Positions 3,932 through 55,579 of a stretch of DNA of 64,000 bases are shown one piece after another. This stretch comes from Nemertoderma westbladi (lineage: Eukaryota > Animalia > Xenacoelomorpha). How positions within the stretch are numbered: the stretch's first letter is position 1; the number at the start of each line of letters is the position of its first letter. The stretch covers positions 13,667 through 77,666 of the forward strand of contig JAUCBJ010008826.1 of NCBI GenBank assembly GCA_032718475.1, read 5' to 3'. The notes under the pieces were generated by a model. It saw nothing but the letters and a program-made list of their open reading frames with translations. It did no database searches and was not told where the DNA came from. The position numbers and the translations under genes were made by a program.

Positions 3932-5117
3932 TGTTCGCGCTTTCAGACCTTTAGCAGTTTAACCTGCCAAATTTGGATGTCTTCTAGATTATAAATCGAC
4001 TTTAGCCTATGACGAGTATTTGTTACACTACATTAGCCGAAGCCAGTCTATGCGCGACCATTCACCCGCTGGATACACCCGGGAGACTGGATTCGGAAGC
4101 TTTGACCTTATTGCGGTGTAGGCCTACTGTATTATTCGACTGATCGTTAATATATAATTTCTGACAAATATTATTCACTTTCGGGAAATATTAACAGTTC
4201 CTTTAGGACGTGGCGCTCTAAATATGTAAACAGAGTTATGACTTATACTAGACACAACGGGATAGCTATGGATTCACGTATAAAGCGCATTCTTTAGGAG
4301 ATGCTTTGTTATCAGTCACAATCATGCACACTACCGCACAATGCTGCACACCGATCTGCCGACCTTCACTAATTTTAGTCACATATAAAGAGAACAACAA
4401 CCGACTCATGTAGTGCCTATGAAATAGCATTAGATTCACTCCAAAACCACTTTAATGTAAGTCGCAATTATTGTATGTAACCGGTCTCTCACCTTCAGTA
4501 TATCAAGAAGATTGGCGGTTTTATGATTATTCACCGATATTATCCAAATATAATAATATTCCATCAACTGATATAATTAATAACCGACAGTAAATAGCAG
4601 TAAAAATGCGGTGTTTGTAGTTGACAATATGATTTGACACACTGACTTGTGATTAGTTTGTGTTGCGATAACAGTTATACGTTTCTATGACCAAAGCCTA
4701 CTAATGTTTGGCTAAAGCCTGAAAACACAGAAATTCCAAAGCCGGTCTTATGGGTGTGGACAAAATACACATACTGACTCAATTGCATGAGTTTCTGTAT
4801 ACAATCTCCAACACAGAGTGAAAACCGCTCTGATTGGTCGACCGAACAAAGAACGAACAAAGAACAAAGAAAATGTTACATGTGTACATATCAGCTGTTA
4901 GATGTCGTCATGGTAACTACACTGTATCAAGAGGATTTTGGCTTATTGCGACATAAGATCGCTAGTTATGTCCGCTAAAGTACACATACAGAAGAAATGG
5001 CTTTTTATGTCCACTAAAACACCGGTACAGTAAGGAAACGGCTTTTTATGTCCGTTAAAACACCTACAGAGCACTTTGCGGGAAAAATAACTAGCTAGAT
5101 CCGCAAAAGCCTTTACA
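3932..5117 (-). mobile_element. Solo LTR of the BEL/Pao family (subtype closer to the 36244-55130 copy)
   Basis: TG...CA ends (TGTTCGCGC at 3932, CTTTACA at 5117). 5-bp TSD CATAG at 3927-3931 and 5118-5122. Colinear with 53938-55130. Confidence 0.93.
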
Positions 5118-19593: not shown

Positions 19594-19662
19594 CTGTTTA
19601 GAGTATTTTTATATTTTAGAAACTGTGATTTTTTATATTTTATAGACTTAAATCCCATTTTC

Positions 19663-36243: not shown

Positions 36244-37396
36244 TGTTCGCGCTTTTAGACCTTTAGCAGTTTAACCTGCCAAATTTAGGTGTCTTTTAGG
36301 TTATAAATCGACTTTAGCCTATGACGAGTATTTGATACACTACATTAGCCGAAGCCAGTCTATGCGCGACCATTCACCCGCTGGATATACCCGGGAGACT
36401 GGATTCGGAAGCTCTGACCTTATTGCGGTGTAGGCCTACTGTATTATTCGACTGATCGTTAATATATAATCTCTGACAAATATTATTCACTTTCGGGAAA
36501 TATCAACAGTTCCTTTGGGACGTGGCGCTCTAAGTATGTAAACAGAGTTATGACTTACACTAAACACAACGGGATGGCTAATGATTCACGTATAAAGCGC
36601 ATTCTTTAGGAGATGCTTTGTTATCTGTCACAGTCATGCACACTACCGCACAATGCTGCACACCGATCTGCCGACCTTGACTAATTTTAGTCACATATAA
36701 AGAGAACAGCAACTGACACATGTAGTGCCTATGAAATAGCATTAGATTCATTCAAAACCAATATAATGTAAGTCGCAATTGCTATATGTAACCGGTCTCT
36801 TACCTTCAGTATATCAAGAAGATTGGGGTTTTATGATTATTTATCGATATTATCCAAATATAATAATATTCCATCAACTGATACAATTAATAACCGACAG
36901 TAAATAGCAGTAAATAATGCGGTGTTTGTAGGTGACAATATGATTTGAGCATGTACTGGTTTGATATGGTTTGATTTGCAGTGTGATAGGATAACAGTTA
37001 TACGTTTCTATGATCAAAGCCTACTAATGTTTGGCTAAAGCCTGAAACACAGAATAATTCTAAAGCCGGTCTTCTGGCATCAGGAAAAAAGGTAAACATA
37101 AACCGTAATGCATTGCGCGATTTCCCGGAGGTTTCTGTACAAAGAACATGAGAATCGCTCTGATTGGTTGACCGAACAAAGAAACAAAGGAAAAGTTACA
37201 CGTGTACATATCAGCTGATAGATGTCGTCATAGTAACTACACTGTATCAAGAGGATTTTGGCTTATTGCGACATAAAATCGCTAGTTATGTCCGCTAAAT
37301 TACACATACAGAAGAAATGGCTTTTTATGTCCGTTAAAACACCTACAGAGTACTTTGCGGGGAAAATAACCAGCTAATTCCGCAAAAGCCTTTACA
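36244..37396 (-). repeat. 3' LTR of copy B
   Basis: Direct repeat of 53938-55130, lacking one ~41-bp unit. Confidence 0.95.
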
Positions 37397-37474
37397 CCGC
37401 TCCCAGAAAATGGGATTTAATTCTATAAAATATAAAAAATCACAGTTTCTAAAATATAAAAATACTCTAAACAG

Positions 37475-40400
37475 TTAGTCTTTCTTGCGCGGACGGCGTT
37501 GACGCAGTTTTTTGAGGCTAGCAAGAGTCCTTTTCTCTTTGGGGCGAGCCACTTTACTAGGAGGGCTATAACTCCTGGGTGAAGGGTGCAATACAATTGC
37601 ATCAGAAGGTTTAGGATTACGGTCGGTGTATCCGCCGGTCGAGGTACCTGGTTGATCGATATCAACTTCAGAGGAGCGAGGTCTAACGGCCTTTAGGGCG
37701 TGTCTTAGGACAGCAGCTCCTACTGGTCCCTGACGAGTCATCTGGACGATAGTGGTAGGTGGACCGTGAGTGGTGAGAAACTTCCTCGGTTTAATGGTTC
37801 TTTCCAGCTCGCGTTCTCAGGCTCGATATTCGTAGGGCCATCGATGTACTTCCTGTAACTCAGGGTGCAAGTTGATAAATAAATCGCCATACTCAGGGTC
37901 TTGACGGATGAAATTGATCAAATGGTATGAATTAATATCGTTAGGATTGACGTTCCTGAGATATTTTCGAACAAATTTGGTGGAAATACACTCACCAACA
38001 CACTTCATTAGTTCGTAACTCGGTGTGCGTGTTTTTTGTTCAACAGACGCGAATAGATAAGGATGGAACGCGTAAACTCCTTCGTAGGCGCGTCCAGGGT
38101 AATAGCGATGGCGGGACTCACAATGTAAATCCGCATTCGCTTCCCAAGCTCGGATGTAGCGCAGGGTAATCATCTCATCTACGCTTTCCAGATCGCGGTT
38201 AAAAGGGCAATCATAACTGGCATGTCCTTTAAGTTGACAGTGGTGGCATTGAGTCATAAATTGGGGGCAGACTGCGAAAATGTGCGAGTTATTGAGTCTG
38301 CAATACGCACAATAGATCTCCATCATCGGTTGTTCATGGAAATAGGAGCAGGGTACGTCTGAGTCCATAGGGGTGAAATGATCTCTCTATGCGCATAATC
38401 GGCAACGTTTTCGAGAAACATAGTTGGCGTGCCGATAATCATATGCGGTGAGACATTGTGGACCTTGATACCATTCCAAGACGTAGTCGTTATCGCTGCT
38501 CCGGGGCGCTGTAGGCTGAATCTCCTCAGATTCTAAGCATATTGGTTCGTCTTCCAATTGCATAGCTGAGGTAGGTGCGGCTGTCTCCGCAAGCGAACCC
38601 ACTGTCTGAACTTCCACGACGGAATAACCCGTGGGTATTCGAGGTCTTTGTATAACAGATGAATGTAAGTTCTGTATACAAACGTCCTTGAAAAGGGCGA
38701 ATCCTGCGCTGTCTAACTTCTCTGCAGCTGAGTCTCTTAGGCTGAGTTTGGTCAGAGCGCGGTCCTTGAACTGACTATCAACGTTACGGAACGGAGTCAG
38801 AAAGCGCCTGAAACATTCGAAGCGGATGAATTTATTGTGTTCATCTAGCTTGGCGATTTTGGTTCCAAGTATTAAGGGATGGGCGCGTATGGTACGACTG
38901 CACACATCGGCTAGCCAACCAGCAAGTGCGGCATTTTCAAAGATCATGTATATAGCTAAGGAGGGACGAAGTGGAACGCTCATAAAGCTATACACGGCGC
39001 CAGGTGCGGTCAATGGTCTGTCAAAGTATAATCGAGAATAATGATCTCCATATACTTGTTGGTAGTTGATAGGATTTCCAACCTTGAAATTCCATCCGTA
39101 TTCTTGAAAGGCAAGATGTCCGATGGAGGTTCGTTGTACTTTAGTAATGCCGCTGGGTGTATTTGCATACATAGTGCAGAAGAAACCTCAGCCTTCTGCC
39201 CAGGGAGCAATCAGCTGAGTATCGACGAAAGGGTATGGAATGTTCTCCATGTTCCGAAAGTCGTTTTGGAGATCTCTGTAAACAGCTGAGCCGATTTTAA
39301 GGATTCTTTCTTTAAACAACATCTCGAGCACGGGCTGGGGTAACATCGATCCATCGATACCCATGGCCGATTTGCGCTCGGTGTCGGTGACGTAACGCTG
39401 CGCGATTTCGAATTGTCCATGTCGGAGTTTCTTTTGTATCTCGGTAAGGGTCTCAAAAGAATAATCAATCACATCGGAACACGCTCGAGTAAATACGTGG
39501 GTAGAACCAGGTAGTCCTCGTATATGTATCATGCGCGTAGTTCCCAGTTCTCCAACCGGAACGCTACCTTCGTTATCGTAAGTGACAACTCCATACATCT
39601 CGATAACGTTAAGAGTCTCATTCCACTCTTTAGAGGCGTTTTCTAGAGTCATTCCCACTGGATGCCACAAGGTAGTGCATTCGCTAGCATTAGGTAGATC
39701 TCTATACTTTAAATATTGTGTAGTATATGTTTCTACATCTCCATATCGTTGTATTCTTTCCTCCTCGGATAACACGTCGAGATTCCAGTGTACTAATCGA
39801 GTTTTGATGAATCCATCAAGATTATACGGAGGTATTGTCTCTTTCTCTATTCTGGAAACATTATAGGGTTTTCGAAATGAGTTTACTTTGACTAACTGAT
39901 CCAGATGTTTCTGCAGTTGTTCGACTTCGACAAGATCGAGAGGATTTATTAGTGGTAGAAACCTCAGACTATGTGTAGGATCTTCCGGTTTTACCATGTA
40001 ATATTGCATTAGATTGACATAATAAGGGTGATCTTTGATCCCATAAAACGAGTTCAGTAAAGGTCTAGCGCGTATGTTAACCTCGTGTACCATACGACGG
40101 ACAAGATCCGCTCTATTGTCCGGAGGTTCAACGAGTATACCATCGACACGAGCGGCCTCGATTGGCGGACGTTGCAACATGGGAGCGTCAGTGATAAGAT
40201 CTCGAGATCTTAGGTTGATATCAACCGGTTGAGGCTGTGCCGTGGCGAAGAGTTTGTCTCTGAAATGGGGAACCATCGAAGGATGGATGATGGTTTTAGA
40301 ATAGAGATCCGTCATAAGGATTTGAGCTTCTGGCTGGGCTAAAGCTGCTTCTTCTCTCTCATCCATTTCTATGTGTTTCTCCTCGAGCTGATTTTCCTCA

Positions 40401-41728
40401 GCTTGTTGTTGTAAACGCTCGTCTAGGAACTCTTGTAGAGAGTAGGTTCGTCCACGTTCGATGTCTTCCTCGAGATTCTGGATTTCTCTATCGAACTGAG
40501 GTAAAGCTAATTCTTTCACCGCTTGGACTTGTTGCTGCAATTTGCGTTTCTCTAAACAATCGTAAGTTCCTTTTCCGATCTTCTGCCGAATAGCGTCTAA
40601 CGCGTTTCGTACAACGCTCTCTTCGACTTCGGAAACGGGTTGTATCGGGGTTAAGCCTGGACGGTTGTACGGGTTAAACGGCGATATTAGATGACCGCGT
40701 CCTAATCCGGCTAGGTAGGGTTGGCGAATATCTAGAGAGCCCACTACCGGAGTGCCACCGATTAATTGTTCGGGTAACACAAGATCTTTAAATAGTGAGT
40801 ACAGTTCAGGGGGATCCGTTATACTATTAGGATCAAGCGTTTGAGGTCTCACTGAGGAATGAGGAGGTCTGACCGAGTATTCCGGAACTCTGATCATCGG
40901 TTTATTTAAGGATTGTTTGAGTCGAGCGAGCGTAGGTGATACGTCGAACAGGTTTCGCTCGAAACTCCCATAAGTATATCGTGTAAAACTGTGTTTAGCG
41001 CAACGTCTCCGCGGATGTTTATGTCTTTCCGTTTGCTGATTGGGTCTAGGGCATTCATCACAGTAATACCAAAGACGCACGTCCTGCAGGGGAAACGCGG
41101 GTGATCGTTCTCCAGTTTTACAATATTCCTCCATCTGCTCGAAGCTATCTGGGACGACAGGTAGCGGTCGATCGGCGGTAAGATACATCATAGTAAAATA
41201 GAGTCGTTTGAGTTCTATCATAGGGTCATGATGTATACCTTGAGGATATCGAGTTTCTAGATTTTGTTGACTGGCAATATTGAGATATGTTTCTCTCAGG
41301 AATTCCAGATAATCGTTGAAGTCGCTGCGTTTATCCGGCTCTTCAACGTCTTCCCTTTCGAGTCTGTTTCGAATAGAATTCTCGTGTTCTATTCTCGGTT
41401 TATCGTTCCGACTCCGCTGGGTATGATATTTAAATAAAACCATTTCCCTTTCGGTGTCTACATCGTCCGTATCGTGTAAATCGATAGGATGGCCAGTAGT
41501 TAAGAAGTCCATATACGTACCATTACGATGCGTATAGCGAGCGGTGAATTTTCTATAGTCCAATTCACACGTAAGTTGCTCCTGGGACATTGGCGGTTCG
41601 ATATAACGACCATCATCCTCTGTAGTAGTTGGACCAGCGTCGCCGCGTATCAAGCTATCAACAAACGCTTGTAAAGGTAGAGTATATCGCTCCCTGATAC
41701 CAAGATCATCTTCTATCAACTCAGTCAT
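37475..41728 (-). pseudogene. Accessory ORF3, ~1417 codons with three in-frame stops: putative DEDDy 3'-5' exonuclease plus zinc-knuckle protein
   Basis: ORFs 39188-41728, 38387-39172, 37817-38368 and 37475-37741 share one frame, and the gaps between them are open. Exo-like motifs GVVTYDNEG, LPQPVLEMLFKERILKIGSAVYRDL, FVDTQLIA, SIGHLAFQEYG and LAIYMIFENAA. Knuckles CRLCA*RDH, CAYCRLNNSHIFAVC and CHHCQLKGHASYDC. Confidence 0.8.
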
Positions 41729-41828
41729 ATCTGCTATATGAGTTTATCGATATTATAATGAGTTTATATTTAGGCTAGCGGGCGTCGCTGCCTACCCCTC
41801 TCTGCCCCCGGACAGTGCAAGATCCTCA

Positions 41829-41899
41829 GCGCCGATGTACCGTCGTCGCTGTGTTTTTCGCCAATGTAGTAGCTACACAACGACAACGATAACCGGCAC
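41829..41899 (-). ncRNA. Conserved 71-nt RNA hairpin upstream of ORF3 (copy B)
   Basis: GUGCCGGU/AUCGGCGC outer stem and a fully paired 17-bp inner stem UAUCGUUGUCGUUGUGU/ACACAGCGACGACGGUA with G-U pairs. Confidence 0.6.
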
Positions 41900-43366
41900 A
41901 AGTCACTCCACTGTCCGTCCCAAAGGCTTAGATTTACTTCAGGTTCTTGCTACAGAGTTAGGGCTACTTTCACAATTGCGACTCGCTACTGTAAACACAC
42001 TTTAGTAGTAACATTCACCTATAAACGCACAAATTCCACACAACTGTCACAAATTGTACACATCCGGGCCATTTGTCCGTTAGTCAGTGCCTTCCAGAAT
42101 GCCACGTTATTATTATGTATCCTTGGATACTAGCAGTGTGCTATTTACTCGATATGCTATTCAATGGGGCAAGCTTTCTATTGTTCTTTTAACTCACTTC
42201 TAATTCTAGCGTGGTTGTTGCTATGGTGACATTATGGAAAGCTAGCGGTAGAATTAGGGTAATTCTCATGCATACAGATCTGGGATGCTATTTAATAGTA
42301 ATTCTTTAATTGTCGATATCCCCTTTATACATGATTTTATGAATTTTATCGGCTATTGACTATATATTGGAGATTCTCGCACACTAATACACTTAATAGG
42401 GTGAATCTCCGCTCCCATGATCTATTAATTTATGGAATTTTGGGAATATTATAAATTGTATAAAAATAACAATTTATAAAATTCATTAAAAGATGAATTT
42501 AAATTTATTCCCGTAAATTTTATTATTTAATATTAAATAGACACAATTTTATTCCAGAACATGTCTGGGGACTAGGATCCTTGATTCTAGGAAATTGGTC
42601 TTTTTAAGAATATCGGTAAGTGCTACGATATCTTAATAGACTAGAATTTTAAAGGATCTAAAATTTGACAGATTTTATAAATATTAATAATTAATATTTA
42701 AGATGGGCACCGGTTTATTCCAGAACATGTCTGGGGACGTTAACCATTGATTCTAGAATTTTGTCTTTCAAGTATATCGGTGGGTGCCGCGATATCTTAA
42801 TCGAATAGAATTACAGATGGTCAAAGGGTTTAACAGATTTATTTTGCGTTTTACGCTACTGTTAAAGGGACATCACGCTACTATATGTATTATTTAATAT
42901 ACGGTATGAGAGCAATATCGTAAGAAGCAATGTCAGTGAGAAGAGGCAAGTCGTTTCCAAGGTCTACCCAGAGCTTGGTTTAGCCGAGACACGAGGATCT
43001 GAATTTTGCATTCCTAATACTCTACTTACCAATAATACTTGAATATAGTAGGAGCTTTATTGTACTTTAATAAGTACGGATATTTCATCTTACTGTAGTC
43101 ACGTATTTATAATGTAATACGAACAGTAAGGAAAGAGAAAAAGAATTATTTCTCGCCGTCGCACTAAATATATAATATATAAGTAATTAAGTAATAAACG
43201 CGAATATATATATGGCACTAATCTACTAAATAATCGCTAAAATAACATTCTACTAAATAAAATTAAAGAAAACGATTATAATAAAATTACATAATAATAC
43301 ATACATAAATATAAAATAATGAAACAAATATAAAATAGTATACTCATACACCCACTCCAGATGCTG

Positions 43367-46300
43367 TTATGTTGGGGAGTCCCTAGATGTTTGTTGGATT
43401 AGGGAGGTGGTCATGGGAAGAGTATCTTGCCTTCCATAGTTTCCGGAGAGTTCTCTGTCTCTTTCCAGTAAACATAAACGACCAACTGGGCGATTGAGCT
43501 GCTGTGTCTCGAAGACAATTCCCGGTTTCTTAAAGTTACGTCGCATGACGACGAGTTCTACCGATCGCACTAAACCATCATCCGAGATGTGAGTCTCGAT
43601 GATACGACCTGTCTGCCACCGCTTACGTGGAAGATCTGAATCCACAATAAGGACCATGTCTCCAGCGCTGACGTTTTCTTGCTGCTCAAACCACTTAGTT
43701 CGAAGTTGTAGATAATGTGTGTAATTTGCAGATAATGTTTTTCGAAATGGTCAGCGAAACGACGGGATAACAACTGCATAAGTTGCCAAGTTTGCCGGCA
43801 GTATTCGTCTCCGTCTGTGATTTCCGATCGTGGGAGCATGGCTACAGGTTTCTTCAGTAGGAAGTGCGCGGGTGTTAGCGCTTCCAGGGAATCGGGACTC
43901 GATGAGACTGGCATAAGCGGTCTCTCGTTGAGATAGGCGGCGATTTCCTCCATTAACGTCCGCAAAAGTTCGTCGGTGAGATACGCGCGGCACGGCACTA
44001 TGAAGTGAAATGCGGTCTTCACGCTCCTGATTAATCTCTCCCAACTTCCTCCCCACCAAGGGGCGTCGGCGGCGTTGAAGGTTCAGCTAGACGCTGTTAC
44101 CCTTAGCTGATCGTCCACCTGTCTTTGGTTCCAATCTTTGACGTAAGCCTTGATTTCATTGTTGGCACCAATGAAGTTCGTTCCCTTATCAGATCTCATC
44201 GTGTTACTAGTTCCAAAGCGAGCGATCTGTTGTCGTAAGCTCAATAGGAAGCTGTTGGTAGATAAATCGTTCACCATATCGAGATGGATAGCTCTACAAG
44301 TCATACAAACAAAGATGACACACCATCTCTTGACTATAGTCCTAGCACGATATACTTCAATAGGGCCAAATAAATCTACACCGGTATTAGTAAAAGGTGG
44401 TTCATAGAAGCTTACTCGTTCCCTAGGTAATTCTGCCTCTCGCTGTGTTAAAGGCCTACTGAATGCTTTCCTACAGGGTATGCAGTTCCTAAGAACTTGG
44501 TTCAGAGCTCTACGGGGTTTATAAAAATAATAGCGAGTTCGAATTTCGCTAAGAACTCGTTCTCTACCAGCATGATAAAGATTGCTGTGAACATCTACAA
44601 TCATCTTGATTTGTATTTCCAGATTTCTAATGAGTATGGGAAACTTAGTATCAAAGGATAATGGAGCATTAATTAATCTTCCTCCAACACGTATCAACCC
44701 ATCTATCATTGTGCTAGAGAAACGATCCCTTAAGCGCATCTGTGGATTTCTCAACAACAGGAAGTACTTATCGGAATCCTCATAGCATTGCAGGAGTCTC
44801 AGCATCTGCTTATTGGTTTCTTCATGCTCCTGATAACTGATCTTCTCCTTCAGAAACCTGTCGGATATCTTATATTTGGGAAGATCTTTAACAACATGAA
44901 CCTGCACAGATGTCAGTGGAGCGGTATCACTAGTGGTCTTCGTCCTGGAGTAGTGATGATGAAAACATCGCTTTAAATATGTAATGGCTTTACAGAGCCG
45001 ATTCCAGGAACTATAATGATGTATCGCTCTCTGCAGAAGAGGTGAGAGTCCTTGCGAGACGTCTGGTATTCCAGATTTCCAATCCCTCTCTCTGATTTCC
45101 ACAACAGACTTATTTGTAGCTGTGGGTTTTGGATCCAAAGCGTCGTCTCCGGAAGTGTGTAGTACAGACAGATCTACCACGGGTTTAAATAACTTCGATT
45201 TACTCGCCCGAGTTTTAGGTTTGACTTTCCCCGCTCCCTTGGCCTGTCTAATCTCCGCCGTAGTAAGATGAGGAGGCCATTCATCCACTTCTTTGCTTAG
45301 GAAGTCGGGTCCACCTAACCAGTATGGAGTATCTATCAGTTCTTGTGGAGTTGCTCCCCTGGATGCGATGTCTGCTGGATTAATCGTTCCGGGGCAATGT
45401 CTCCATTGATCCATCTTCGTGCGACTAAGTATAATGGCTACTCTGTTGGTAACGAAGACGCTGAACTGACAGACTTCATTGGTTATATACTCCAACACGA
45501 GTAAAGCATCGGTCCAATAGACAGTTTTCTCCAGTGGATATTCGATCTGTTCTGTTACATTCCGGCCGATGGCTGTAGCGTATAGAGCCGCTTTTAACTC
45601 CGCTCGAGGAACTTTCAACTTGTTGTTTATCAATGCCTTAGAGGTAACCAAGGCGACTTTGATTCCATCTGGAGTTTCCACTCTCAGGTAGGCTACTATA
45701 CCTATTCACATGTCGCTGGCGTCTCCAAACACATGGAGTTGATAGGAATACGTAGGGAGAACATGACCAAAATATGAACGGGAAATTATAAAGTTCTCGA
45801 TGGCTGGTAGAGAATCTTCCCATTTCATCCACTTCTTTAATAGTTCTCCCTTAAGTGGATCGTCCCATGAGTGGTTTTCAAGCCACATTTGTTGTACTAA
45901 ACTCCGAGCAATCAATATAACTGGGCTAATAAATCCCAATGGATCGAAATAAGTGCTCAGGATACTTAAACAAATCCGTTTAGTCCGAACTGGATTATCT
46001 CGCTGTTTGAGCTGGAAAAACAGGATATCTCTCTCTGTGTCCCATTTCAAACCAAGTGTTTTGGTTTCTGGAAGATCGTCTTTGATTAGGTCTAGATCTT
46101 TCGCTCCTCGATCTTCTACCGGAATCGATTCCAGAAACTCACGGGAGTTGCTGGTGAATTTAGTTAATCGAAATCCACCTCTTTTTAAGCACTCTACCGT
46201 TCCTTTGGCGACATCAATGGCTTCTTCCACCGATGGAAGGGACTTTAAATTGTCGTCCATGTATATATCCCGTTTGATGTTGTCGATCACCTCTTTAGAG

Positions 46301-49300
46301 AAGGCGTCCCGGTTGTCATCAGCAGTGGTGCGCACCACTGAGCAGGCGTTTGAAGGGCTTGAGATGATCCCAAAAGCCTGGATGGTCATCCAATACTCCA
46401 CCGGTTTCTGGTTGAGGTCTCCTTCAGGCCACCACAGAAATCGTAGGCTGTCTCGATCCCTATCCAGCGCCTTGACTTGTAAGAACATGCCTTCTATATC
46501 GGAGGCAGAAACGATTTAATATTGTCGTAATCTTAAGAATATTCCCAACAAGGATTGGAGTAAGTTGGGTCCTGATAACAACTCGGAATTAAGGGATTGG
46601 CCCATGTAGAGGGCGGAGCCGTCAAATACTACCCGTACTTCATGGGGTTTACCGGGTTTGGGAACGTAATGATGTGTTAGATAGTACGTTCTCTCAGTTA
46701 TGGTGTTTCTTCCGGTACTCGCTCCGCATATCCCTTGTTAATAAATTTCTTCAACTGAGTCTGGTACATTTCTTTAGCTGAAGCATTTGCCGTAAGGCAT
46801 CGATGTAGTTGAGCAATTCTTTTCTCCGCCAAGGGTCGGTTGTTTATGAATTTTGGTTCTTGCTTTCGGAATGGTAGACCGATTTCATATCTACCTTGAT
46901 CTTTAAGAAAACGTGTAGTTGTCTCCTGGATCTGCTTGGCTCTTTCTTCTTCTACCAATAGGGCCTTATCGTAGGAATTGGGCTCTACAGCCTCTTGAGT
47001 AAAGAATCGCACGGTGTGTTCATCCCGAGTCTTCACGTTATAGCGCTCTATTACGTCATTCAGTTCGTCGTTATAGTCGACTTGTCCTGATGGACGAATG
47101 TGTTGACATAGGTTCACTTGGTTTTGCCAAGTCTCGTTTTCCGTAAGGAGGTTGATGGTATTCTCCTCGTCGAAGAGTTGGTGGATATCGTCATTATCTG
47201 AGGAGTATGGTGTTCCCTCAGTTGGGTCGTCTACCTCACTGATCTCCGCTTCCCATTCACTTACTTGGTATACCCGTTCTTTTGGTAACCTTTCCATGAG
47301 AGTTCTACGGGAAGGGCCAGTAAATTACCAACCTACTCTAGTTCTTCCCGCATAGGCTTGTAGTGGTTGCGGTTGAGCAGGCCGTTTCTCCAATGTCTCA
47401 AGCGCCTCATGCGCATTTTGGCCGATGAGTATTTGCACTCCAGGGTAATATGTGTTGAATCTAGGTATATTAAGCTGCTGGGTGAAATCGTCCTCATCCC
47501 AGTTATAAGGTTCTACTTCGCTGGTAGCGAAGTTCTTTATCGCCACCATTTTTACTGACCTTATACTGTGTTCTCCTAGTTCATCCTGGGGGGTGGACAA
47601 CACACCTACATAATAATCCGCTATTACTGTAGATTTCCAAACCTGCATAATTCCTGACATGTTTAACTTAGTTCGGAACTTGGGTTGTCCAGCAAAGATG
47701 TCTTCGGCAGTTCTTTGTCGATGAATGTCCCTGTGCTACCGGAGTCAAGTAGGGCGTTCACTATATAACTCCTTTCAGGTCCGTGGACCCTCAACTGCAC
47801 TACGGGAAATTCTCGGATTCCTACATTGGAAGTTGGCGCATCTAGGTATATTAAGCTGCTGGGTGAAGTCGTCCTCATCCCAGTTATAAGGTTCTACTTC
47901 GCTGGTAGCGAAGTTCTTTATCGCCACCATTTTTACTGACCTTATACTGTGTTCTCCTAGTTCATCCTGGGGGGTGGACAACACACCTACATAATAATCC
48001 GCTATTACTGTAGATTTCCAAACCTGCATAATTCCTGACATGTTTAACTTAGTTCGGAACTTGGGTTGTCCAGCAAAGATGTCTTCGGCTAGTTCTTTGT
48101 CGATGAATGTCCCTGTGCTACCGGAGTCAAGTAGGGCGTTCACTATATAACTCCTTTCAGGTCCGTGGACCCTCAACTGCACTACGGGAAATTCTCGGAT
48201 TCCTACATTGGAAGTTGGTGCTTTCCAAGATGGTTGTCGGTCAGAAGTAGTTAGGGGGGGCTCGCTGTCGGTGTCCTTTTCGTACGTAAGTGCTTGATAC
48301 ACTGCGGTATTTATCAGGTAACAGGATTCGTTTTCGTCGGAGAATTCGTCCGTATAGAATCCTTCCATCTCAGAACTTTGGTCAGTGTCGTTCACATCAC
48401 TGAATTGGACATGTAGTTCGGACTCACTTACCTGACTCGGGCTGTTTCGTTCGAATTCAGTGTGCAACAAGATATGATGTTTTGCGCCGCACTTTGCACA
48501 CCTTGCGTCGGAGTAACAGGTTCGCCGTTGGTGTCCTTGTCTGAGGCAATTATAACACAACCGCTTATCCCACATGACTTCCCGTCTATCCTTTAATGAT
48601 TTCGTTAGGAATTCATCACACACATTCAAACGGTGGGGCCCGTCACACAGCGCACATTTCGATTTGATGTTACTTACCTTATTTTGAGTGACGTTGTGCA
48701 CACTCGTTCTTTCTTCGGGCTTTCTTACATGAATTCTCTTAGGAGACGTAGGAGGAGTTTTTCTTACCTGTTCTCTCCTGTCATTGGTTCGAGACTTGAA
48801 TTTACTTACGTCTTTAGGCGTTTTGTTGACATAATAAGATCTTTCAGTGTCTTTCCCGCTGTCCTCTTCTTGAGAAGCCTGGCTTTCACCGTCGTCGGTA
48901 TAACACACTGGTGTTACCTTTCTCCTAGAAACGGGTTTCTCACTTACCTTATTTTCCGGTGTCTTCTCTCTGGACTGCTTTAGGAGCTGTAATTTTACTT
49001 CTCCATCTAAGAATGACATGAGATCAGCCATGGTAGGGTCTCGTCGTTGTTGTTCCATCATATATAACACTTTCTTATCCCAGTGAGTACCTACTCCACC
49101 CTTCGGTAAAGTAGAGGCCACGGCTCCAATAACCATAGAACTCTGATATTCATGAGACTTACCTAGCCAATCTAATTGTCTACAGATCTCCTGAATCTCA
49201 TCAGAAAACTCTATAATCCCGCTGCTAATGAACTTTCGGGGGGCTACCAATTTTGCATAGAAATACCTAGCTATGTTATTCCTATTACCATACCTGATGT

Positions 49301-51802
49301 TTAGTGTATCCCAAACTTGTCTTAATCCATCTGGATGTCCAATAAACTTTAACGCCATTAACTTGGAGATCCTTCCAAGCACTCGATGAGGAATCTAAGT
49401 TTCTCTCCGTTAGATAGCACAGAGTTCTGTATGTTATCTTTGTAGTATTCATTAAAAGGTAACCATTTCATCTCATCTCCATTGAACTTGACGATCTCTC
49501 CCACCTTTACCGCTTGACGGGCTTCGGTTCTAGCCATTTGACGTGTAAAACTTTCTTGGGCCATCGTATTATTTAATATCGAGTTATCGGTATATAAATT
49601 TCTCGGATTATTATCAGGTCTATATGGAATATCATTGTCAACAGGTTTATAATTACCCTTAATAGGGTTTTCTATAGGAGTTTCTACTTCACTAGCAGTA
49701 TAGATGTGTGTAGGCTCCACACCTTGCACATGAAATACTTCAGACCTAACAGGTTGACACATTGTTACTGGGGTTGGTGGTATACCCCTTTGGGTATTTA
49801 CTAATTTATCTCTCTCTAATGCGATACTCTGCTGCACTTCTTGCAACTCTAACCTACTTTCCCTTACCGTGCCCTTGAACTGCTGAACAGTTCCTTCCAT
49901 CTCCCGGACCTGCTGAGAGGAGCACTTACGGTGTTCCATCAGCTGCCCGAGCAGGAGACCCATCTCCCGTCGTCCCTCAGCTACCCACTCGACCGCCGAA
50001 GCGGGAGTCGCCAACGTAGTAGCGGGCGAGCGAGAGACGACGGGCGATAAATTCTTGATATCTCGCTCAGCGTCCAGGACGGGTTCGGACTCGTGAACAG
50101 TCCTACTGGGCATAGGTAGTTTAGTACTGTGCAAAGGGAATTTAGAGGTAGGTTCTGGGAGTACAGGTGTCTCTATCACCGAAGGGGTGGCTTCGAGAAC
50201 AGGCCTAATTATTTCAGGCTCATCTACTATAGTAGGGAGTCTTTCTATTTTAATTATTTGGTCTATGGGTTCTGTACTACCTAAGTCTGTGCAAGCTAGT
50301 TGCCTTCTAACAGCTGGGGGCAAGTCAGGCAATTTCTGACTGTGAGGCATTCTTCTACGTCTGCTTAGACGAGATCTATTTCCTCCGCCTTCAGGATCGT
50401 TGGTATCGCCTTCATCAGATGATGTATATCCCTGTCTTTTAGGAGTAGATCGACTCATCATCTGCATTTGACTAGCTGTTAACTGTTTATTTATGCAGTC
50501 TTGATTCTCTTGGATATTTTCCAACTCTAGTTGGGTAGTCTCTTCAGACGCTCTTCGTTCTGCTTCTGCCACTGCTATCTTTCTTTCTGCTTCTACTGCT
50601 GCTGCTGCCGCTTTTGCCTCTGCCGCTGCCGCTTTTCTTTCCGCTTCTGCCGCTGCCATTGCCGCTGCTGCTGTCTTTCTGTCTTCTATACGTTTTTTCT
50701 TGACTTGTTCTTCTTGGACCCTAGCGATGCGGAGTCTTTCATCAAATTTAGCTTGGTTCGCAGCTAACATTTCCGCATCTATTGCGTCCAACACAAGCTT
50801 AGCTCCTTCACTATTAGGGCGAAGTCCAGACAACCGTCTCCTCAACTCTTTGTCACCTAGAAATCGTTGATAGTCTGACAGATAGATGTCAATAGCATCC
50901 CTCTTATGCGGTTTCTCTGCTGTCGCTTCACTTTCCACTTGGAAAAGGTAGCGTCTGTTGATTCTCCATGGGTTGAGCACTCAGCCAGCTGAGATTTCCA
51001 CTGGGCCGTTCCTTGAACTTTGAGACCCACCCGCTGAAACCAAGTCTTTACGGCAACTTGCAACGACGTGTCTTGTCTTCTTTTCGAAGCCTCCTCAAAG
51101 GCCGATAGGATTAGTCTGATTCTTAGAATTCTTTCTCGAACTTGATAAAGCAGCTCTCCCTGCTCTTGAGGTCCTTGGGGTTGTCGAACCAGTTGTTCCT
51201 CTAATCGCTCCAAAGAGCTGAAGAATCCCTGTACGTATCCTGCTGCCGACCTCTTCCACACAGCTGGATCGCTGGTGTCTTTTGACACTCCCATCCTGTA
51301 TATGTCTTCCCAGGCAGCTTCCGATAAGTCAAACGGGAGTCCGGGTCCGGGGAAGTTCCATTGCGACTCGACAATAGACTTCAGTTCTTCCCTTGTGTAT
51401 CCCGCATAACTATCCTTGGTCGATCGCTTACTTCTCGCCCAATCAATCTGGTGTTCCTCCACCGCAATCAATACCCTAATGAGTACGGCTGCAGGAAGGA
51501 TGAGAAGGGGATCCGAATAAACCGCATCTGCCATCTTTGGGCCGCTGAGAAATAAGTTCTCGGCTCGAGTGTTGCTGCTGTTCAACAGCTGCCTCTTGGT
51601 CCCGCTTGAACTGAGCTCGAGTGCCTATGATAGACCTACGGTGTTGGACTAGCCTAGGGTCTGATACTACTACTGGAGGGATGATCTTTCTTACAGTAGG
51701 AGGTGAGTTGAACTTCGGTCTCACACATTCCACACTCCTGTCTGGGTCACAGATGGTTGTATCTAGGAGACTGTCTGACAGGTTTTGCTTTGTGTCAGAC
51801 AT
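43367..51802 (-). pseudogene. gag-pol: BEL/Pao gag-pol polyprotein of copy B, broken by several frameshifts/stops and a duplication
   Basis: Gag knuckles CALCDGPH/CYNCLRQGH/CAKCGAKHHILLH. Protease ALLDSGS. RT IYMDD and FRLTKFTSNS. RNase H LHVFGDAS, PRAELKAA and YWTDA. Integrase H..H...CIPC, GVDLFGP, SDKGTNF and LTPAHFL. Confidence 0.95.
47461..48220. repeat. ~381-bp tandem duplication of the protease region in copy B
   Basis: CTAGGTATATTAAGCTGCTGGGTG at 47461 and 47842. The ALLDSGS motif appears twice. Confidence 0.9.
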
Positions 51803-51939
51803 GTTTGTTTGTACAGTTGAATGCCTACTGCTATATTACAGTTAAAGCAAGTCTAGTAATTCAGTATCAACTGTTAGCCTAGTAATTAATTACTGATACT
51901 GTTACTCAGTGTAACGTGATATATATATAATATATTAGA

Positions 51940-52435
51940 ATACCTGTATACACTTATAGTATATATATAAGTATTATTACAGACTAGATTTGTCACAGAA
52001 TACCGGTATATAATTTCAGCGCAAATATATAGCAATATATAATAAGCCTATCGTGAATACCGGTATACAGCTTACACTTATAGTATATATAAGTATTATT
52101 GCAGACTAGGTTTGTCACAGAATACCGGTATATAATTTCAGCACAAATATATAGAAGTATATAATAAGCCTATCATAAATACCGGTATGCAGCTTACACT
52201 TATAGTATATATAAGTATAATTATAGACTAGAATTAATTACAGAATACCGGTATATAATTTCAGCACAAATATATAGAAATATATAATAAGCCTATCATA
52301 AATACCGATATGCAGCTTACACTTATAGTATATATAAGTATAATTATAGACTAGAATTAATTACAGAATACCGGTATATAATTTCAGCACAAATATATAG
52401 AAATATATAATAAGCCTATCGTGAATACCGGTATG
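51940..52435. repeat. ~120-bp tandem repeats in the 5' leader of copy B (about 4 copies; fewer in copy A)
   Basis: Recurring CAGAATACCGGTATATAATTTCAGC...ATAATAAGCCTATC. Confidence 0.8.
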
Positions 52436-53925
52436 TCAATTATTTTAGAATAATTGAATTTCTGAATTTTAGGGTTACTTGGTTACTTTACTTTACTTTA
52501 TTACCGTTATTTAAGCAGTGGTCCAACTGATATTAAGACCTAATTGATGTATGACAGGCCTACTATTTTATAAATCGGTTTCAGTTGATTTATAATATAT
52601 ATACCCGTATAATGGGTTTTTGTCAATGTTTGAAATAAATGTTATTATTTCTGGGAAAGAGTCACCGCACAGAAGCTGTACGCTCTCAGTGAAGTGCTAC
52701 AAAACAAATAAAACAAATAATTCTAATTTGCCTAAGTTACTTATTACTACAAATTACGTACAATACGGGGTGAGATTACAATCTCTAAATAAACACAAAA
52801 ATTATACGTACAAATTTTTAGGGGTAATTTTACAAGAAGTCTACAAACCAGCCTAACAAAGGGTTAGAATATCTGGTTATTACAACGGACAGGATACTAC
52901 GGTATTTGAAGATAATAAGCAGTAGTAAATATATTGCGTTGTCCAGATAGAAAAAATACCACCGTCTGACGACTTATAGCCGTATCGCTATAAGTACTAC
53001 GTTATGTTTCACGGAGTGTTCCTACCTAGAAGTTAATTACCGCAGCCTACCAGAGCCAACGTGCCTATTAACCACACAAATATACTGCCTACACACTAAT
53101 TACCTTCGGAAAGCACTGTACACTAAACCCTCAATTAGGTACAAGCACTTATACAACAAATAACCAGCCGTTAAAAATACTTGTACAGCTAAAAGAACCA
53201 CGGTATCTGCCGGAGTGACCAAAGCATAAAATCTCCAGTCTTTACCTACGCCAAACAGCCCTGATGTAGTACCGGGGTTAATTTAACTATAACGGTATGT
53301 ATAACAAGCACAATTACTGTAGGAATAAACTTGGGGTATGAATGTTGCGAATAATCGCATAAACTCTGAATAATAAATATTACGCTACCCTTACAGACTA
53401 CACAAACAAAATACAGACCAAACGCTGGCAGACTACTATCAAGCCTAAATAAACCACAGTATATGCAGACTCCGAAATGGTTAGTTAGTATGCGTTCTAA
53501 CCGAGTAGTACGACTTATTCTTTCGGGGGGATTTACCTTACAGCTCTGGAAGCCCACCACGTTCCTAACTAGTACTTTATCGGACATACACTCTACACAC
53601 ACTGCAATCTCTTCAGACTTAACAACAGTCAGACAACAGTCCAGCCTACAAATTACCTGTACAATCTGAGCAGGCTTACACGTCTTCTGCTCAATATTAA
53701 CTTACAGATAAATAAAACTGACAGAAATAAATAAGCTACAAAAGAAACAAGGGGTGTACAGTCCCTAATCTCTTAAACAGCCTACCGGTATACAATATCA
53801 CAATCGAAATAATACTAGTACGTGTACTGCGGTAAGTTCCGGTTCGGGTGGTTAGGCAGTTAGGCCTACTAGTTACCGGTCGACCGGTACTTTAGTCTTT
53901 ATTGCCTACATCGCAATAAAGATCC

Positions 53926-53937
53926 TATAACTGTTAT
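53926..53937 (-). promoter_or_regulatory. Putative self-priming PBS of copy B
   Basis: Element-sense ATAACAGTTATA abuts the 5' LTR and is complementary to the LTR segment at 54684-54695. Confidence 0.7.
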
Positions 53938-55130
53938 TGCTCGCGCTTTTAGACCTTTAGCAGTTTAACCTGCCAAATTTAGGTGTCTTTTAGGTTATAA
54001 ATCGACTTTAGCCTATGACGAGTATTTGATACACTACATTAGCCGAAGCCAGTCTATGCGCGACCATTCACCCGCTGGATATACCCGGGAGACTGGATTC
54101 GGAAGCTCTGACCTTATTGCGGTGTAGGCCTACTGTATTATTCGACTGATCGTTAATATATAATCTCTGACAAATATTATTCACTTTCGGGAAATATCAA
54201 CAGTTCCTTTGGGACGTGGCGCTCTAAGTATGTAAACAGAGTTATGACTTACACTAAACACAACGGGATGGCTAATGATTCACGTATAAAGCGCATTCTT
54301 TAGGAGATGCTTTGTTATCTGTCACAGTCATGCACACTACCGCACAATGCTGCACACCGATCTGCCGACCTTCACTAATTTTAGTCATATAAAGAGAACA
54401 GCAACTGACACATGTAGTGCCTATGAAATAGAATTAGATTCATTCCAAAACCAATGTAATGTAAGTCGCAATTGCTATATGTAACCGGTCTCTTACCTTC
54501 AGTATATCAAGAAGATTGGGGTTTTATGATTATTTATCGATATTATCCAAATATAATAATATTCCATCAACTGATACAATTAATAACCGACAGTAAATAG
54601 CAGTAAATAATGCGGTGTTTGTAGGTGACAATATGATTTGAGCATGTACTGGTTTGATATGGTTTGATTTGCAGTGTGATAGGATAACAGTTATACGTTT
54701 CTATGATCAAAGCCTACTAATGTTTGGCTAAAGCCTGAAACACAGAATAATTCCAAAGCCGGTCTTCTGGCATCAGGAAAAAAGGTAAACATAAACCGTA
54801 ATGCATTGTGCGATTTCCCGGAGGTTTCTGTACAAAGAACATGAGAATCGCTCTGATTGGTTGACCGAACAAAGAAACAAAGGAAAAGTTACACGTGTAC
54901 ATATCAGCTGATAGATGTCGTCATAGTAACTACACTGTATCAACAGGATTTTGGCTTATTGCGACATAAAATCGCTAGTTATGTCCGCTAAAGTACACAT
55001 ACAGAAGAAATGGCTTTTTATGTCCACTAAAACACCGGTACAGTAAGGAAACGGTTATTTATGTCCGTTAAAACACCTACAGAGTACTTTGCGGGGAAAA
55101 TAACCAGCTAATTCCGCAAAAGCCTTTACA
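53938..55130 (-). repeat. 5' LTR of copy B
   Basis: TG...CA ends. Direct repeat of 36244-37396. Confidence 0.95.
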
Positions 55131-55579
55131 GCTTTGATGCACCCAGATTAATTTTAACACTTTAACTGGGGGGGGGGGGGGAGTGTCCGGGGGGCAAGTG
55201 TCCGGGGGGGAAGTGTCCGGGGGGGAAGTGTCCTACTTGGGTGGGGGGGAAGTGTCCGGGGGGAACTGTCCGGGGGGTGAAGTGTCCTAGATCCGTTAGG
55301 ACTTTATATGATTTCTGCGGTCGCAAAATATTAAAATCAAACACAAAATCCAATAATGGAATCATGAAAAAATGTAATATACAGTATATTTATATAGTTA
55401 CAAATATTATTATAGTTATAGAGGGCCTACATTTATATTATTATGGTTAGAGTTTACACTTTTGATAACTTATATACCAAATAATTATATTAATTCAGTA
55501 ATAGGACTTGTGTGCGATACTGTAGTAAGATCGTCGCGGCCTAAGTGATCTCTGCCGTAACGCCGTACACCGCGGACCA

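What the first reader, a model, noticed from the sequence alone, without database searches (positions are those of the whole stretch)
36244..55130. System-level hypothesis: an element-encoded exonuclease makes the self-primer
Inference that links the two findings above. A self-annealed primer needs a free 3' OH exactly at the end of the 12-14-bp duplex. Tf1 uses RNase H cleavage aided by additional pairing into U5. Here I see no continuation of pairing between the bases after the primer and the LTR end. A single-strand-specific 3'-5' exonuclease with nucleocapsid-like knuckles could trim an LTR-derived RNA back to the duplex. That RNA could be a short 5' transcript or the 3' LTR end of a co-packaged genome. 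This would be a tRNA-independent, exonuclease-assisted priming system.
Basis: inference. Interest (0 to 1): 0.75.

Follow-up and report, generated by a model that had tools for sequence, protein, structure and literature searches.

The report
Self-priming giant BEL/Pao retrotransposon with exonuclease-like gene
This is an 18.9-kb BEL/Pao retrotransposon of an animal genome that likely starts its own reverse transcription with a piece of its own repeat RNA instead of a host tRNA, and carries a third gene with a likely exonuclease domain and zinc knuckles; that this gene would cut the primer remains an untested guess.

Summary
The coordinates are exactly one LTR retrotransposon on the minus strand: 1.15-1.19-kb LTRs, TG..CA ends, 5-bp duplication AAAGC, BEL/Pao gag-pol. 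The 12 nt straight after the 5' LTR are the perfect complement of LTR nt 436-447. A second, diverged copy in the same window carries a compensatory double change and a 14-bp duplex. Self-priming is therefore well supported and appears undescribed for BEL/Pao. ORF3 (about 1,300-1,400 aa) has three CCHC knuckles. Its domain matches the 3'-5' exonuclease family PF01612 only by weak but concordant signals, and both structure predictions failed. ORF3 is a real gene of a very abundant family. Two of its three stops were laid and are private to this copy. Of 27 shown polymorphisms, 25 are synonymous. Tf1 makes its primer with RNase H and has no reported exonuclease. DEDDy-type ORF3s are known in rotifer retroelements, including ones with a different RT type. 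Relatives of ORF3 keep the knuckles but lose the exonuclease domain or its acidic residues. I rate the link at about 0.1, self-priming at about 0.85 and the exonuclease-like fold at about 0.75.

The parts
36244..55130 (-). Element A: complete BEL/Pao LTR retrotransposon, 18,887 bp, flanked by the 5-bp duplication AAAGC (55131-55135 and 36239-36243)
53938..55130 (-). 5' LTR, 1193 nt, TGT...GCA
36244..37396 (-). 3' LTR, 1153 nt (a 41-nt repeat unit is missing relative to the 5' LTR), TGT...ACA
54684..54695 (-). Putative self-primer sequence TATAACTGTTAT, LTR nt 436-447. The same 12-mer lies in the 3' LTR at 36991-37002.
53926..53937 (-). Primer binding site ATAACAGTTATA, directly abutting the last base of the 5' LTR; perfect complement of LTR nt 436-447
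53897..53921 (-). Hairpin with a 9-bp stem just 3' of the PBS (CTTTATTGC/GCAATAAAG). The stem is identical in copy B; the loop differs.
54638..54683 (-). Hypervariable block directly 3' of the primer sequence, with large indels between A, B and C. Coordinates are approximate.
   Evidence: low contig depth in bin 54618-54675
37397..37404 (-). Polypurine tract GGGAGCGG directly before the 3' LTR, identical in copy B
47778..51835 (-). gag region in several frames, with DUF1759 and two CCHC knuckles of its own at about 48557 and 48656. Contains a 381-nt tandem duplication.
43370..47735 (-). pol region (Peptidase_A17, Integrase_H2C2, DUF5641), broken by stops and a frame change. Residues 176-1180 of the L002 pol align to 46638-43556.
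41744..43369 (-). AT-rich spacer between pol and ORF3, without a long frame; conserved in copy B
37478..41743 (-). ORF3, one frame of 1422 codons from the stop upstream to the stop downstream; the first ATG is at 41728. It is interrupted by three stops: TGA at 39188-39190, TAG at 38387-38389 and TGA at 37817-37819.
38927..39583 (-). Exonuclease-like domain of ORF3. By eye: Exo I D-N-E (39563-39583), Exo II ...YRDL... (39257-39298), DTQ (39215-39229) and Exo III Y-x3-E (38927-38953). Homologous to the N-terminal domain of P0001.
   Evidence: the motif names are recalled
38207..38404 (-). Three tandem CCHC-type knuckles of ORF3. The first holds the TAG stop.
38060..38146 (-). Conserved motif after the knuckles, shared with P0001, P0002, L002 and L004
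6690..20837 (+). Element B: internally deleted copy of the same family, TSD CATCG. LTR site CGTATATCTGTTAT at 7131-7144 and 20113-20126; PBS ATAACAGATATACG at 7857-7870. It carries the compensatory change and a 14-bp duplex.
3932..5117 (-). Solo LTR C of the same family, TSD CTATG, with the A-type site TATAACTGTTAT

Best explanation
Window 36244-55130 is an 18.9-kb BEL/Pao LTR retrotransposon that likely primes its own reverse transcription in the manner of Tf1. A 12-14-nt stretch of its own LTR RNA (LTR nt 436-447, probably at or near the start of the transcript) would fold back onto the PBS that abuts the 5' LTR.

The 3' OH is most likely made by an endonucleolytic cut at the end of the duplex by the element's RNase H, as in Tf1. 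This step is inferred by analogy.

Because plus-strand strong-stop synthesis copies the primer, the PBS is re-written from the LTR site in each cycle. This would explain why the two sites change together.

ORF3 is a real third gene of the family, under selection. It is predicted to hold an RNase D/WRN-like 3'-5' exonuclease-like domain followed by three CCHC knuckles. Its role is not shown. I take it to be an accessory RNA-binding or RNA-end-processing factor, and its involvement in primer making is possible but unproven.
For: Anatomy:
- LTR pair, TG..CA ends, TSD and PPT.
- Pfam Peptidase_A17, DUF1759, DUF5641 and Integrase_H2C2.

Self-priming:
- In A, an exact 12-nt complement at offset 0 from the LTR end. 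5 of 5000 shuffles reached it, and 0 of 2338 interior control windows did.
- In B, an exact 14-nt complement; 0 of 5000 shuffles reached it.
- A and B differ at one position of the LTR site and at the paired position of the PBS, so pairing is kept. Both LTRs of B carry the change.
- The 12-mer occurs in the element only in the LTRs.
- The helix closes the minimum-energy and centroid folds of the stretch from the LTR site to the PBS in A and B.
- No tRNA-like TGG start is seen in the PBS.
- Tf1 precedent: the first 11 nt pair with the PBS and RNase H cuts between nt 11 and 12 (PMC7175516, passages).

ORF3 is a gene:
- In 1881 nt laid on 4 runs there are thousands of contig pieces but only 2 indel rows. 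The LTR/leader stretch gave 95 indel rows.
- At one position of each of the two stops inside the stretch, 99% or more of the depth in 4 of 4 runs reads another letter.
- Of the 40 variant rows shown (456 not shown), 27 are polymorphic among copies, and 25 of those are synonymous. Of 13 private to this copy, 8 are non-synonymous, 2 are the stops and 3 are synonymous.
- A versus B in the N-terminal part: 82 synonymous and 62 non-synonymous differences, distributed 43/21/80 by codon position.

Exonuclease-like domain:
- phmmer over 1.84 billion representatives found two relatives.
- P0001 aligns over the domain and the knuckles; pairwise E is 4e-12.
- P0001 residues 30-260 score 0.94 on the ESM Atlas, with 174-180 shared features, and all 30 named hits are PF01612 clusters.
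- ORF3 residues 700-851 score 0.87-0.90 to PF01612 clusters.
- The only Pfam hit of the P0001 domain is PF01612, E 0.048.
- RNase D 1yt3 appears at co-linear positions, E 2.3.
Against: - The transcription start was not mapped. No run on record as RNA was listed, so it is unknown whether nt 436 is the 5' end of the RNA.
- The site TATAAC/TATATC also looks like a weak TATA box. If so, it would lie upstream of the start, and a Tf1-like cis model would fail.
- Only two full elements give the covariation, which amounts to one compensatory pair.
- Every exonuclease signal is below the usual thresholds. Pfam shows nothing for ORF3, the PDB sequence searches show nothing, and two AlphaFold models had pLDDT 31 and 35.
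- The fourth acidic position reads E where the family, as I recall it, has D.
- RNase H as the cutting enzyme rests on analogy only.
Confidence: 0.7

Rival explanations
1. The ORF3 exonuclease, held on RNA by its knuckles, trims an LTR-derived RNA 3'-to-5' until it stalls at the primer-PBS duplex. The RNA could be a cut 5' leader, a short transcript, or the 3' end of a co-packaged genome. The trimming would create the primer 3' OH.
For: - The self-complementary PBS and the exonuclease-like ORF3 co-occur in one family.
- The duplex stops exactly at the LTR end, with no further pairing in A or B.
- The 45 or so nt directly 3' of the primer are hypervariable with indels, as expected of a disposable tail (low-depth bin).
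- ORF3 is under purifying selection.
- PMC5408684 (passages) itself suggests that such ORFs might process 3' ends of retrotransposon RNAs.
Against: - No result links the two features.
- Tf1 self-priming uses RNase H (PMC7175516, passages), and no exonuclease gene is reported for the self-priming lineages in the passages of PMC6317226.
- In cis, the primer is joined to the R-U5 stretch of the RNA, so an exonuclease has no entry point without a prior cut.
- DEDDy ORF3s occur in rotifer Juno/Vesta and in Penelope-like Athena/Terminons (PMC5408684, passages).
- L002 and L004 keep the knuckle module without the exonuclease domain. P0002 lacks three of the four acidic positions by alignment.
- Copy B keeps a perfect 14-bp duplex although its exonuclease region is deleted. 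It may, however, be mobilised in trans.
Confidence: 0.1
2. The exonuclease-like domain is mainly an RNA-binding module, active or not. ORF3 would act in packaging, transport or chaperoning of the element's RNA, as inactive DEDD derivatives do in host proteins (EXD1, Maelstrom, Egalitarian).
For: - The conserved core across relatives is the knuckle module plus the motif after it. The exonuclease domain is absent in L002 and L004 and has lost acidic positions in P0002.
- PMC5408684 (passages) notes inactive DEDD derivatives that retain RNA binding.
- The listing of 10.1101/2025.08.03.668247 describes Egalitarian as an RNA-binding adaptor (search listing only).
Against: - In copy A and in P0001, all four acidic positions and the tyrosine appear to be present by eye.
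- gag already has two knuckles of its own.
Confidence: 0.12
3. ORF3 is a counter-defence nuclease that would trim or destroy host small RNAs (piRNA/siRNA) aimed at the element, in the way of Nibbler/Mut-7/ERI-type enzymes.
For: - The family is extremely abundant in the host: 13,171 and 6,503 contig pieces laid in run X1 on 1.7- and 1.9-kb stretches.
- The nearest cellular relatives of this domain class include small-RNA enzymes; mut-7 is mentioned in PMC5408684 passages, and the rest is recalled.
Against: No small-RNA data were available. The knuckle-plus-exonuclease architecture is not that of known silencing suppressors.
Confidence: 0.05
4. ORF3 would serve as a proofreading or cDNA-end-processing exonuclease that lets an unusually long retroelement genome be copied faithfully, in analogy to nidovirus ExoN.
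For: - The element is 18.9 kb, against 4.2-10 kb given for the family (PMC8742986, passages).
- PF01612 is the proofreading domain family of A-type polymerases (Pfam description).
- ExoN and genome size (abstract listing of 10.1101/2021.02.01.429129).
Against: Much of the extra length is spacer, leader repeats and ORF3 itself. No link to RT is seen.
Confidence: 0.03

Closest known systems
Tf1/sushi-type self-priming LTR retrotransposons (Ty3/gypsy); also predicted for the plant Tcn1 and Ty1/copia TAR lineages
   Same: The PBS next to the 5' LTR is complementary to a short stretch of the element's own LTR RNA (11 nt in Tf1; 12-14 nt here). There is no tRNA complement.
   Different: The pol here is BEL/Pao, not Ty3/gypsy or copia. 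It is not known whether the stretch is the first bases of the RNA. No extended pairing is seen. The cutting enzyme is unknown.
Canonical BEL/Pao elements (Belpaoviridae, ICTV profile PMC8742986)
   Same: LTRs up to 1.2 kb, gag-pol with Pao-type domains, sometimes a third gene, and a PPT.
   Different: The profile gives 4.2-10 kb, an 18-nt PBS for host tRNA-Arg or tRNA-Gly, and an env-like third gene. This element is 18.9 kb, has a self-complementary 12-14-nt PBS, and its third gene is exonuclease-like with knuckles.
DEDDy-type ORF3 of bdelloid rotifer LTR retrotransposons Juno and Vesta, and of Athena/Terminon elements (PMC5408684)
   Same: A third ORF downstream of pol with an RNase D-like DEDDy-type domain and a changed acidic motif (DEED there). 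Cys/His zinc motifs are noted in some. The function is unknown, and 3'-end processing of element RNA has been suggested.
   Different: No sequence similarity to them was detectable in my searches; only P0001 and P0002 were found. The host element here is BEL/Pao. The protein is far longer and has three CCHC knuckles. Here there is a clear signal of purifying selection, whereas that paper reports no significant departure from neutrality (passage).
Cellular DEDDy exonucleases RNase D / WRN-exo / Mut-7 / Nibbler (PF01612)
   Same: Order and spacing of the Exo I, II and III-like motifs and the DTQ motif. The language-model features of P0001 match PF01612 clusters.
   Different: All signals are below family thresholds. 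There is a roughly 40-aa insertion after Exo I. E stands where D is expected in Exo III. The domain is fused to knuckles inside a retroelement gene.

Membership tests
BEL/Pao (Belpaoviridae) LTR retrotransposon | Pao-type pol and gag domains between two LTRs | tested here: met
   Peptidase_A17 E 8e-22, DUF5641 E 3e-18, Integrase_H2C2, DUF1759. LTR pair 98.8% identical. 5-bp TSD.
BEL/Pao (Belpaoviridae) LTR retrotransposon | PBS of about 18 nt complementary to the 3' end of host tRNA-Arg or tRNA-Gly (ICTV profile) | tested here: not met
   The PBS is complementary to the element's own LTR. No tRNA gene lies in the window. The host tRNA set could not be searched because no genome is held.
BEL/Pao (Belpaoviridae) LTR retrotransposon | Genome of 4.2-10 kb (ICTV profile) | tested here: not met
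   18,887 bp.
Tf1-type self-priming | PBS adjoining the 5' LTR pairs with a short stretch of the element's own LTR RNA | tested here: met
   12 nt in A and 14 nt in B, with a compensatory change.
Tf1-type self-priming | The pairing stretch is the first bases of the transcript | not testable with these tools
   No run on record as RNA and no raw reads were available. Contigs cannot show starts.
Tf1-type self-priming | RNase H cuts at the end of the duplex | not testable with these tools
   Needs biochemistry.
Tf1/sushi clade (Ty3/gypsy chromoviruses) | Ty3/gypsy-type pol | tested here: not met
   The pol is Pao-type.
DEDDy 3'-5' exonuclease (PF01612) | Profile match above the Pfam gathering score | tested here: not met
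   ORF3 gives no hit up to E 10. The P0001 domain gives 13.9 bits against a cut-off of 23.6.
DEDDy 3'-5' exonuclease (PF01612) | Exo I D-x-E, Exo II D, Exo III Y-x3-D in order | tested here: inconclusive
   By eye, D-N-E...RDL... and Y-x3-E in ORF3, and D-V-E...ADL... and Y-x3-E in P0001. The Exo II/DTQ region aligns to RNase D at E 2.3. The motif definitions are recalled.
DEDDy 3'-5' exonuclease (PF01612) | DEDD (RNase H-like) fold | tested here: inconclusive
   AlphaFold gave pLDDT 31.2 and 35.2, so no fold search was run. ESM Atlas features favour PF01612.
CCHC zinc knuckle | C-x2-C-x4-H-x4-C | tested here: met
   CHHCQLKGHASYDC fits exactly. CAYCRLNNSHIFAVC has x5. The first motif is interrupted by a stop. 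Pfam zf-CCHC_3 is only E 0.031.
Retroelement DEDDy ORF3 (rotifer Juno/Vesta type) | Sequence relatedness to those ORF3s | not tested
   Their sequences were not at hand. The library-wide phmmer run found only P0001 and P0002.

The most novel reading that the evidence does not exclude
A retrotransposon family makes its reverse-transcription primer without a tRNA and without relying on RNase H alone. Its own ORF3 protein, an exonuclease held on RNA by zinc knuckles, chews an LTR-derived RNA back to the 12-14-bp primer-PBS duplex and leaves the 3' OH there. This would be a new, element-encoded primer-maturation step.
Probability: 0.1. Interest if true: 0.85.

Novelty: new variant of a known kind. 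Interest (0 to 1): 0.6.

Why it matters
Self-priming is described for Tf1/sushi, Tcn1 and some copia lineages. The ICTV profile states that BEL/Pao elements are primed by host tRNA. My searches found no paper reporting self-priming in BEL/Pao.

This family would extend self-priming to the third superfamily of LTR retrotransposons. It offers a natural compensatory pair as evidence.

The family also combines three oddities in a very abundant element:
- about twice the stated maximal genome size;
- no tRNA PBS;
- a rare third gene under selection, with an exonuclease-like domain and knuckles, that has only two detectable relatives among 1.84 billion protein representatives.

It is therefore a good system in which to ask what retroelement-borne DEDDy genes do. 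That question has been open since their description in rotifers.

Tried and rejected
- **Earlier findings:** none on record.
- **Pfam on ORF3 pieces:** nothing except a weak CCHC hit. PHROGs gave nothing useful.
- **PDB sequence searches:** ORF3 pieces and the P0001 domain gave no exonuclease. The profile search gave RNase D only at E 2.3.
- **AlphaFold:** the ORF3 domain alone and the two-row alignment A3 gave pLDDT 31 and 35. I ran no fold search on them.
- **The search for homologous proteins:** three searches found nothing beyond the queries themselves. Cluster look-up gave no names.
- **Viral-contig scan with the exonuclease alignment:** no relative found.
- **Sequencing runs:** no RNA holder was listed. 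X4 is only guessed to be RNA and comes from another organism label. Its lack of cover over LTR nt 224-513 cannot be told from divergence.
- **PBS and primer-site variants:** they were not among the rows shown (313 rows were not shown), so copy-wide covariation could not be counted.
- **Poly(A) signal:** there is no AATAAA in any of the five LTRs, so R could not be delimited.
- **151-aa frame in the leader (53249-53701):** it has no family hit, and no frame of 150 aa or more is open at the matching place in B. I take it as chance.
- **Palindrome or protein-site reading of the PBS:** rejected, because B breaks the palindrome but keeps the pairing.
- **tRNA or other fixed host primer:** rejected as the main reading, because PBS and LTR site changed together.
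- **Gladyshev et al. 2007 (PMC1839950):** not held, so the PBS type of Juno and Vesta stays unknown to me.

Full report
**What is at the coordinates**

The span 36244-55130 is exactly one LTR retrotransposon on the minus strand.
- Two direct repeats, 53938-55130 and 36244-37396, are 98.8% identical over 1102 aligned nt. The 3' copy lacks a 41-nt repeat unit.
- They begin TGT and end (G/A)CA. The 5-bp duplication AAAGC flanks the element on both sides.
- A polypurine tract GGGAGCGG precedes the 3' LTR.
- The interior encodes, in broken frames, a gag with DUF1759 and two CCHC knuckles, and a Pao-type pol with Peptidase_A17, Integrase_H2C2 and DUF5641.
- The intact pol of a metagenomic BEL/Pao contig (L002) aligns to 46638-43556.
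- A 1.6-kb AT-rich spacer follows. After it comes a single long frame, ORF3, at 41743-37478 (1422 codons), interrupted by three stops.

At 18,887 bp the element is about twice the 4.2-10 kb that the ICTV profile gives for Belpaoviridae (PMC8742986, passages read).

**The self-complementary PBS is real**

The 12 nt that directly follow the last base of the 5' LTR (ATAACAGTTATA, 53937-53926) are the exact complement of LTR nt 436-447 (TATAACTGTTAT).
- With offsets of 0-6 nt allowed, 5 of 5000 shuffled LTRs gave a match of 12 nt or more.
- None of 2338 40-nt control windows from the element's interior did.
- Within the element the 12-mer occurs only in the two LTRs.

**The strongest new evidence comes from the window itself**

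The window holds a second, internally deleted copy of the same family (B, 6690-20837, plus strand, TSD CATCG). It also holds a solo LTR (C, 3932-5117, TSD CTATG).
- B is 86-95% identical to A.
- In both LTRs of B the site reads TATATCTGTTAT, and B's PBS reads ATAACAGATATACG.
- The one change in the site is therefore matched by the complementary change in the PBS. Pairing is kept and extends to 14 bp.
- 0 of 5000 shuffles reached 14 nt.
- Given one change in each 12-mer, the chance that they fall on the paired position with the complementary base is about 1 in 36 (my arithmetic).
- B breaks the near-palindrome of A's PBS but keeps the pairing. This argues for an RNA duplex and against a palindromic protein site.
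- A fixed host RNA primer does not explain a PBS that changes together with the LTR.
- In folds of the RNA from the site to the PBS, the helix closes the whole stretch from the LTR site to the PBS in both the minimum-energy and the centroid structures of A and B.
- A 9-bp hairpin follows the PBS in both copies.

**How it most likely works**

The arrangement is that of Tf1. [quoted passage not shown] Self-priming is also predicted for the plant Tcn1 and TAR lineages (PMC6317226, passages). I infer the same for this family.

If the primer is copied during plus-strand strong-stop synthesis, as in retroviruses generally (established knowledge), the PBS is re-written from the LTR site in each cycle. 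That explains the compensatory pair without any need for selection.

Not shown:
- That nt 436 is the transcript start. No run on record as RNA was listed, and all runs were contigs, which cannot show starts.
- Where R ends. No LTR has an AATAAA.
- Which enzyme cuts.

The site also resembles a weak TATA box. If it acted as one, the start would lie downstream and a cis model would fail.

**ORF3 is a real gene of the family**

I laid the exonuclease/knuckle part (37820-39700) on four runs.
- Thousands of contig pieces were laid (6503 in X1). Only 2 indel rows appeared, each in a single contig of X5. The LTR/leader stretch gave 95 indel rows, 12 shown and 83 not shown.
- At one position of each of the two stops in this stretch, 99% or more of the depth in 4 of 4 runs reads another letter. 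These stops are therefore private to this copy.
- Of the 40 variant rows shown (456 were not), 27 are polymorphic among copies. Of these, 25 are synonymous, 24 at third codon positions.
- The 13 that are private to this copy are 8 non-synonymous, 2 stops and 3 synonymous.

This is the pattern of purifying selection during the family's spread, followed by neutral decay of this copy. The N-terminal part, compared between A and B, shows 82 synonymous and 62 non-synonymous differences, distributed 43/21/80 by codon position.

**What ORF3 encodes**

The C-terminal part has three tandem CCHC-type knuckles, followed by a conserved motif. The first knuckle holds the TAG stop.

A full HMMER pass over 1.84 billion representatives found only two relatives.
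- P0001 (648 aa, E 9.9e-6) aligns over the putative exonuclease region and the knuckles.
- P0002 (633 aa, E 2.1e-4) aligns over the knuckles and the motif after them.

Evidence that the N-terminal domain of P0001 and the matching ORF3 region belong to PF01612 is weak piece by piece, but concordant:
- ESM Atlas features of P0001 residues 30-260 put all 30 named hits in PF01612 clusters, with score 0.94 and 174-180 shared features.
- ORF3 residues 700-851 score 0.87-0.90 to PF01612 clusters (a lead only).
- The sole Pfam hit of the P0001 domain is PF01612 at E 0.048, below the cut-off.
- A two-row profile hits RNase D 1yt3 at E 2.3, at co-linear positions over the Exo II/DTQ region.

By eye, ORF3 and P0001 both show D-x-E, then ...(R/A)DL..., DTQ and Y-x3-E in the expected order (the motif definitions are recalled). 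E stands in the fourth acidic place.

Pfam finds nothing in ORF3 itself. Both AlphaFold jobs failed. I therefore call the domain likely (about 0.75), not shown.

**The wider family**

A scan of metagenome contigs returned the following:
- P0002's own contig (L001).
- An 8.2-kb contig (L002) with an intact BEL/Pao pol, a 1.7-kb gap, and then a 929-aa ORF. That ORF shares the knuckle module but not the exonuclease region.
- A similar 904-aa ORF (L004).

By alignment, P0002 has lost three of the four acidic positions. The module common to these ORF3s is therefore the knuckles, and the exonuclease domain is dispensable or degenerate in some of them.

**The proposed link**

Nothing here connects the exonuclease to the primer.

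Against it:
- Tf1, the studied self-priming element, makes its primer with RNase H (PMC7175516, passages), and no exonuclease is reported for the self-priming lineages in the passages I read of PMC6317226.
- DEDDy-type ORF3s are already described in rotifer Juno and Vesta LTR elements and in Penelope-like Athena/Terminons. The authors suggest a role in 3'-end processing of element RNAs, or other auxiliary roles. They do not mention primer binding sites: 0 occurrences of PBS, primer binding or tRNA (PMC5408684, passages).
- In cis, the primer is joined to the R-U5 stretch of the RNA, so an exonuclease would need a prior cut.

For it:
- The two features co-occur.
- The duplex ends bluntly.
- ORF3 is under selection.
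- The 45 or so nt directly 3' of the primer are a hypervariable indel block. That would fit a disposable tail, or imprecise first-strand transfer.

I put the link at about 0.1.

**Novelty**

Each component has precedent: self-priming in gypsy and copia lineages, and DEDDy ORF3s in rotifer elements. New here are their occurrence in BEL/Pao, their combination, the three-knuckle fusion, the size of the element, and the clear selection signal.

Searches for BEL/Pao self-priming found no report. Of the six papers holding Pao, self-priming and retrotransposon, I read the self-priming passages of two (PMC6317226, PMC3601003), and neither mentions self-priming in BEL/Pao. The other four I judged from titles and abstract openings only.

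Supplements of PMC6317226, which list PBS types, were not opened. They concern plants.

Noticed in passing
window 6690-20837 (+): A second copy (B) of the same family, internally deleted. It lacks most of pol and the C-terminal two thirds of ORF3 (element A nt 14775-17498), has TSD CATCG, and keeps the LTRs, PBS, leader, gag and spacer. It is possibly a non-autonomous derivative.
   Followed up: partly
window 3932-5117 (-): A solo LTR of the same family with TSD CTATG, about 90% identical to A's LTR. Three insertions of one family lie within 64 kb.
   Followed up: partly
window 54638-54683 (-): The block directly 3' of the primer sequence differs by large indels between A, B and C. It has the lowest contig depth of the LTR in the DNA runs. 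The cause is unknown; imprecise strand transfer is one idea.
   Followed up: partly
window 53897-53921 (-): A conserved hairpin with a 9-bp stem lies right after the PBS. Its 3' arm contains AATAAA. The stem is identical in A and B and the loop differs at three places.
   Followed up: partly
window 51995-52485: Four tandem copies of a 123-nt unit lie in the long leader between the PBS and gag.
   Followed up: no
window 47459-48221: A perfect 381-nt tandem duplication lies inside the gag region of copy A.
   Followed up: no
window 41744-43369 (-); L002 3728-5422: A spacer of 1.6-1.7 kb without a long frame lies between pol and ORF3, both here and in the unrelated BEL/Pao contig L002. It might hold an internal promoter or a splice acceptor for ORF3.
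   Followed up: no
L002 5423-8209; L004 615-3326: ORFs of about 900 aa share only the CCHC module with ORF3 and are 25% identical to each other over 778 aa. In L002 the ORF lies downstream of a BEL/Pao pol. This is a second type of knuckle-bearing third gene, with no family hit.
   Followed up: partly
window 55163-55176 (minus-strand reading): A run of about 14 C lies some 35 nt outside the 5' end of the element.
   Followed up: no
window 55029-55070 and LTR alignment columns 75-115: A repeat unit of about 41 nt (GGACATAAA...) near the 5' end of the LTR varies in copy number between the two LTRs of A and among contigs of the runs.
   Followed up: no
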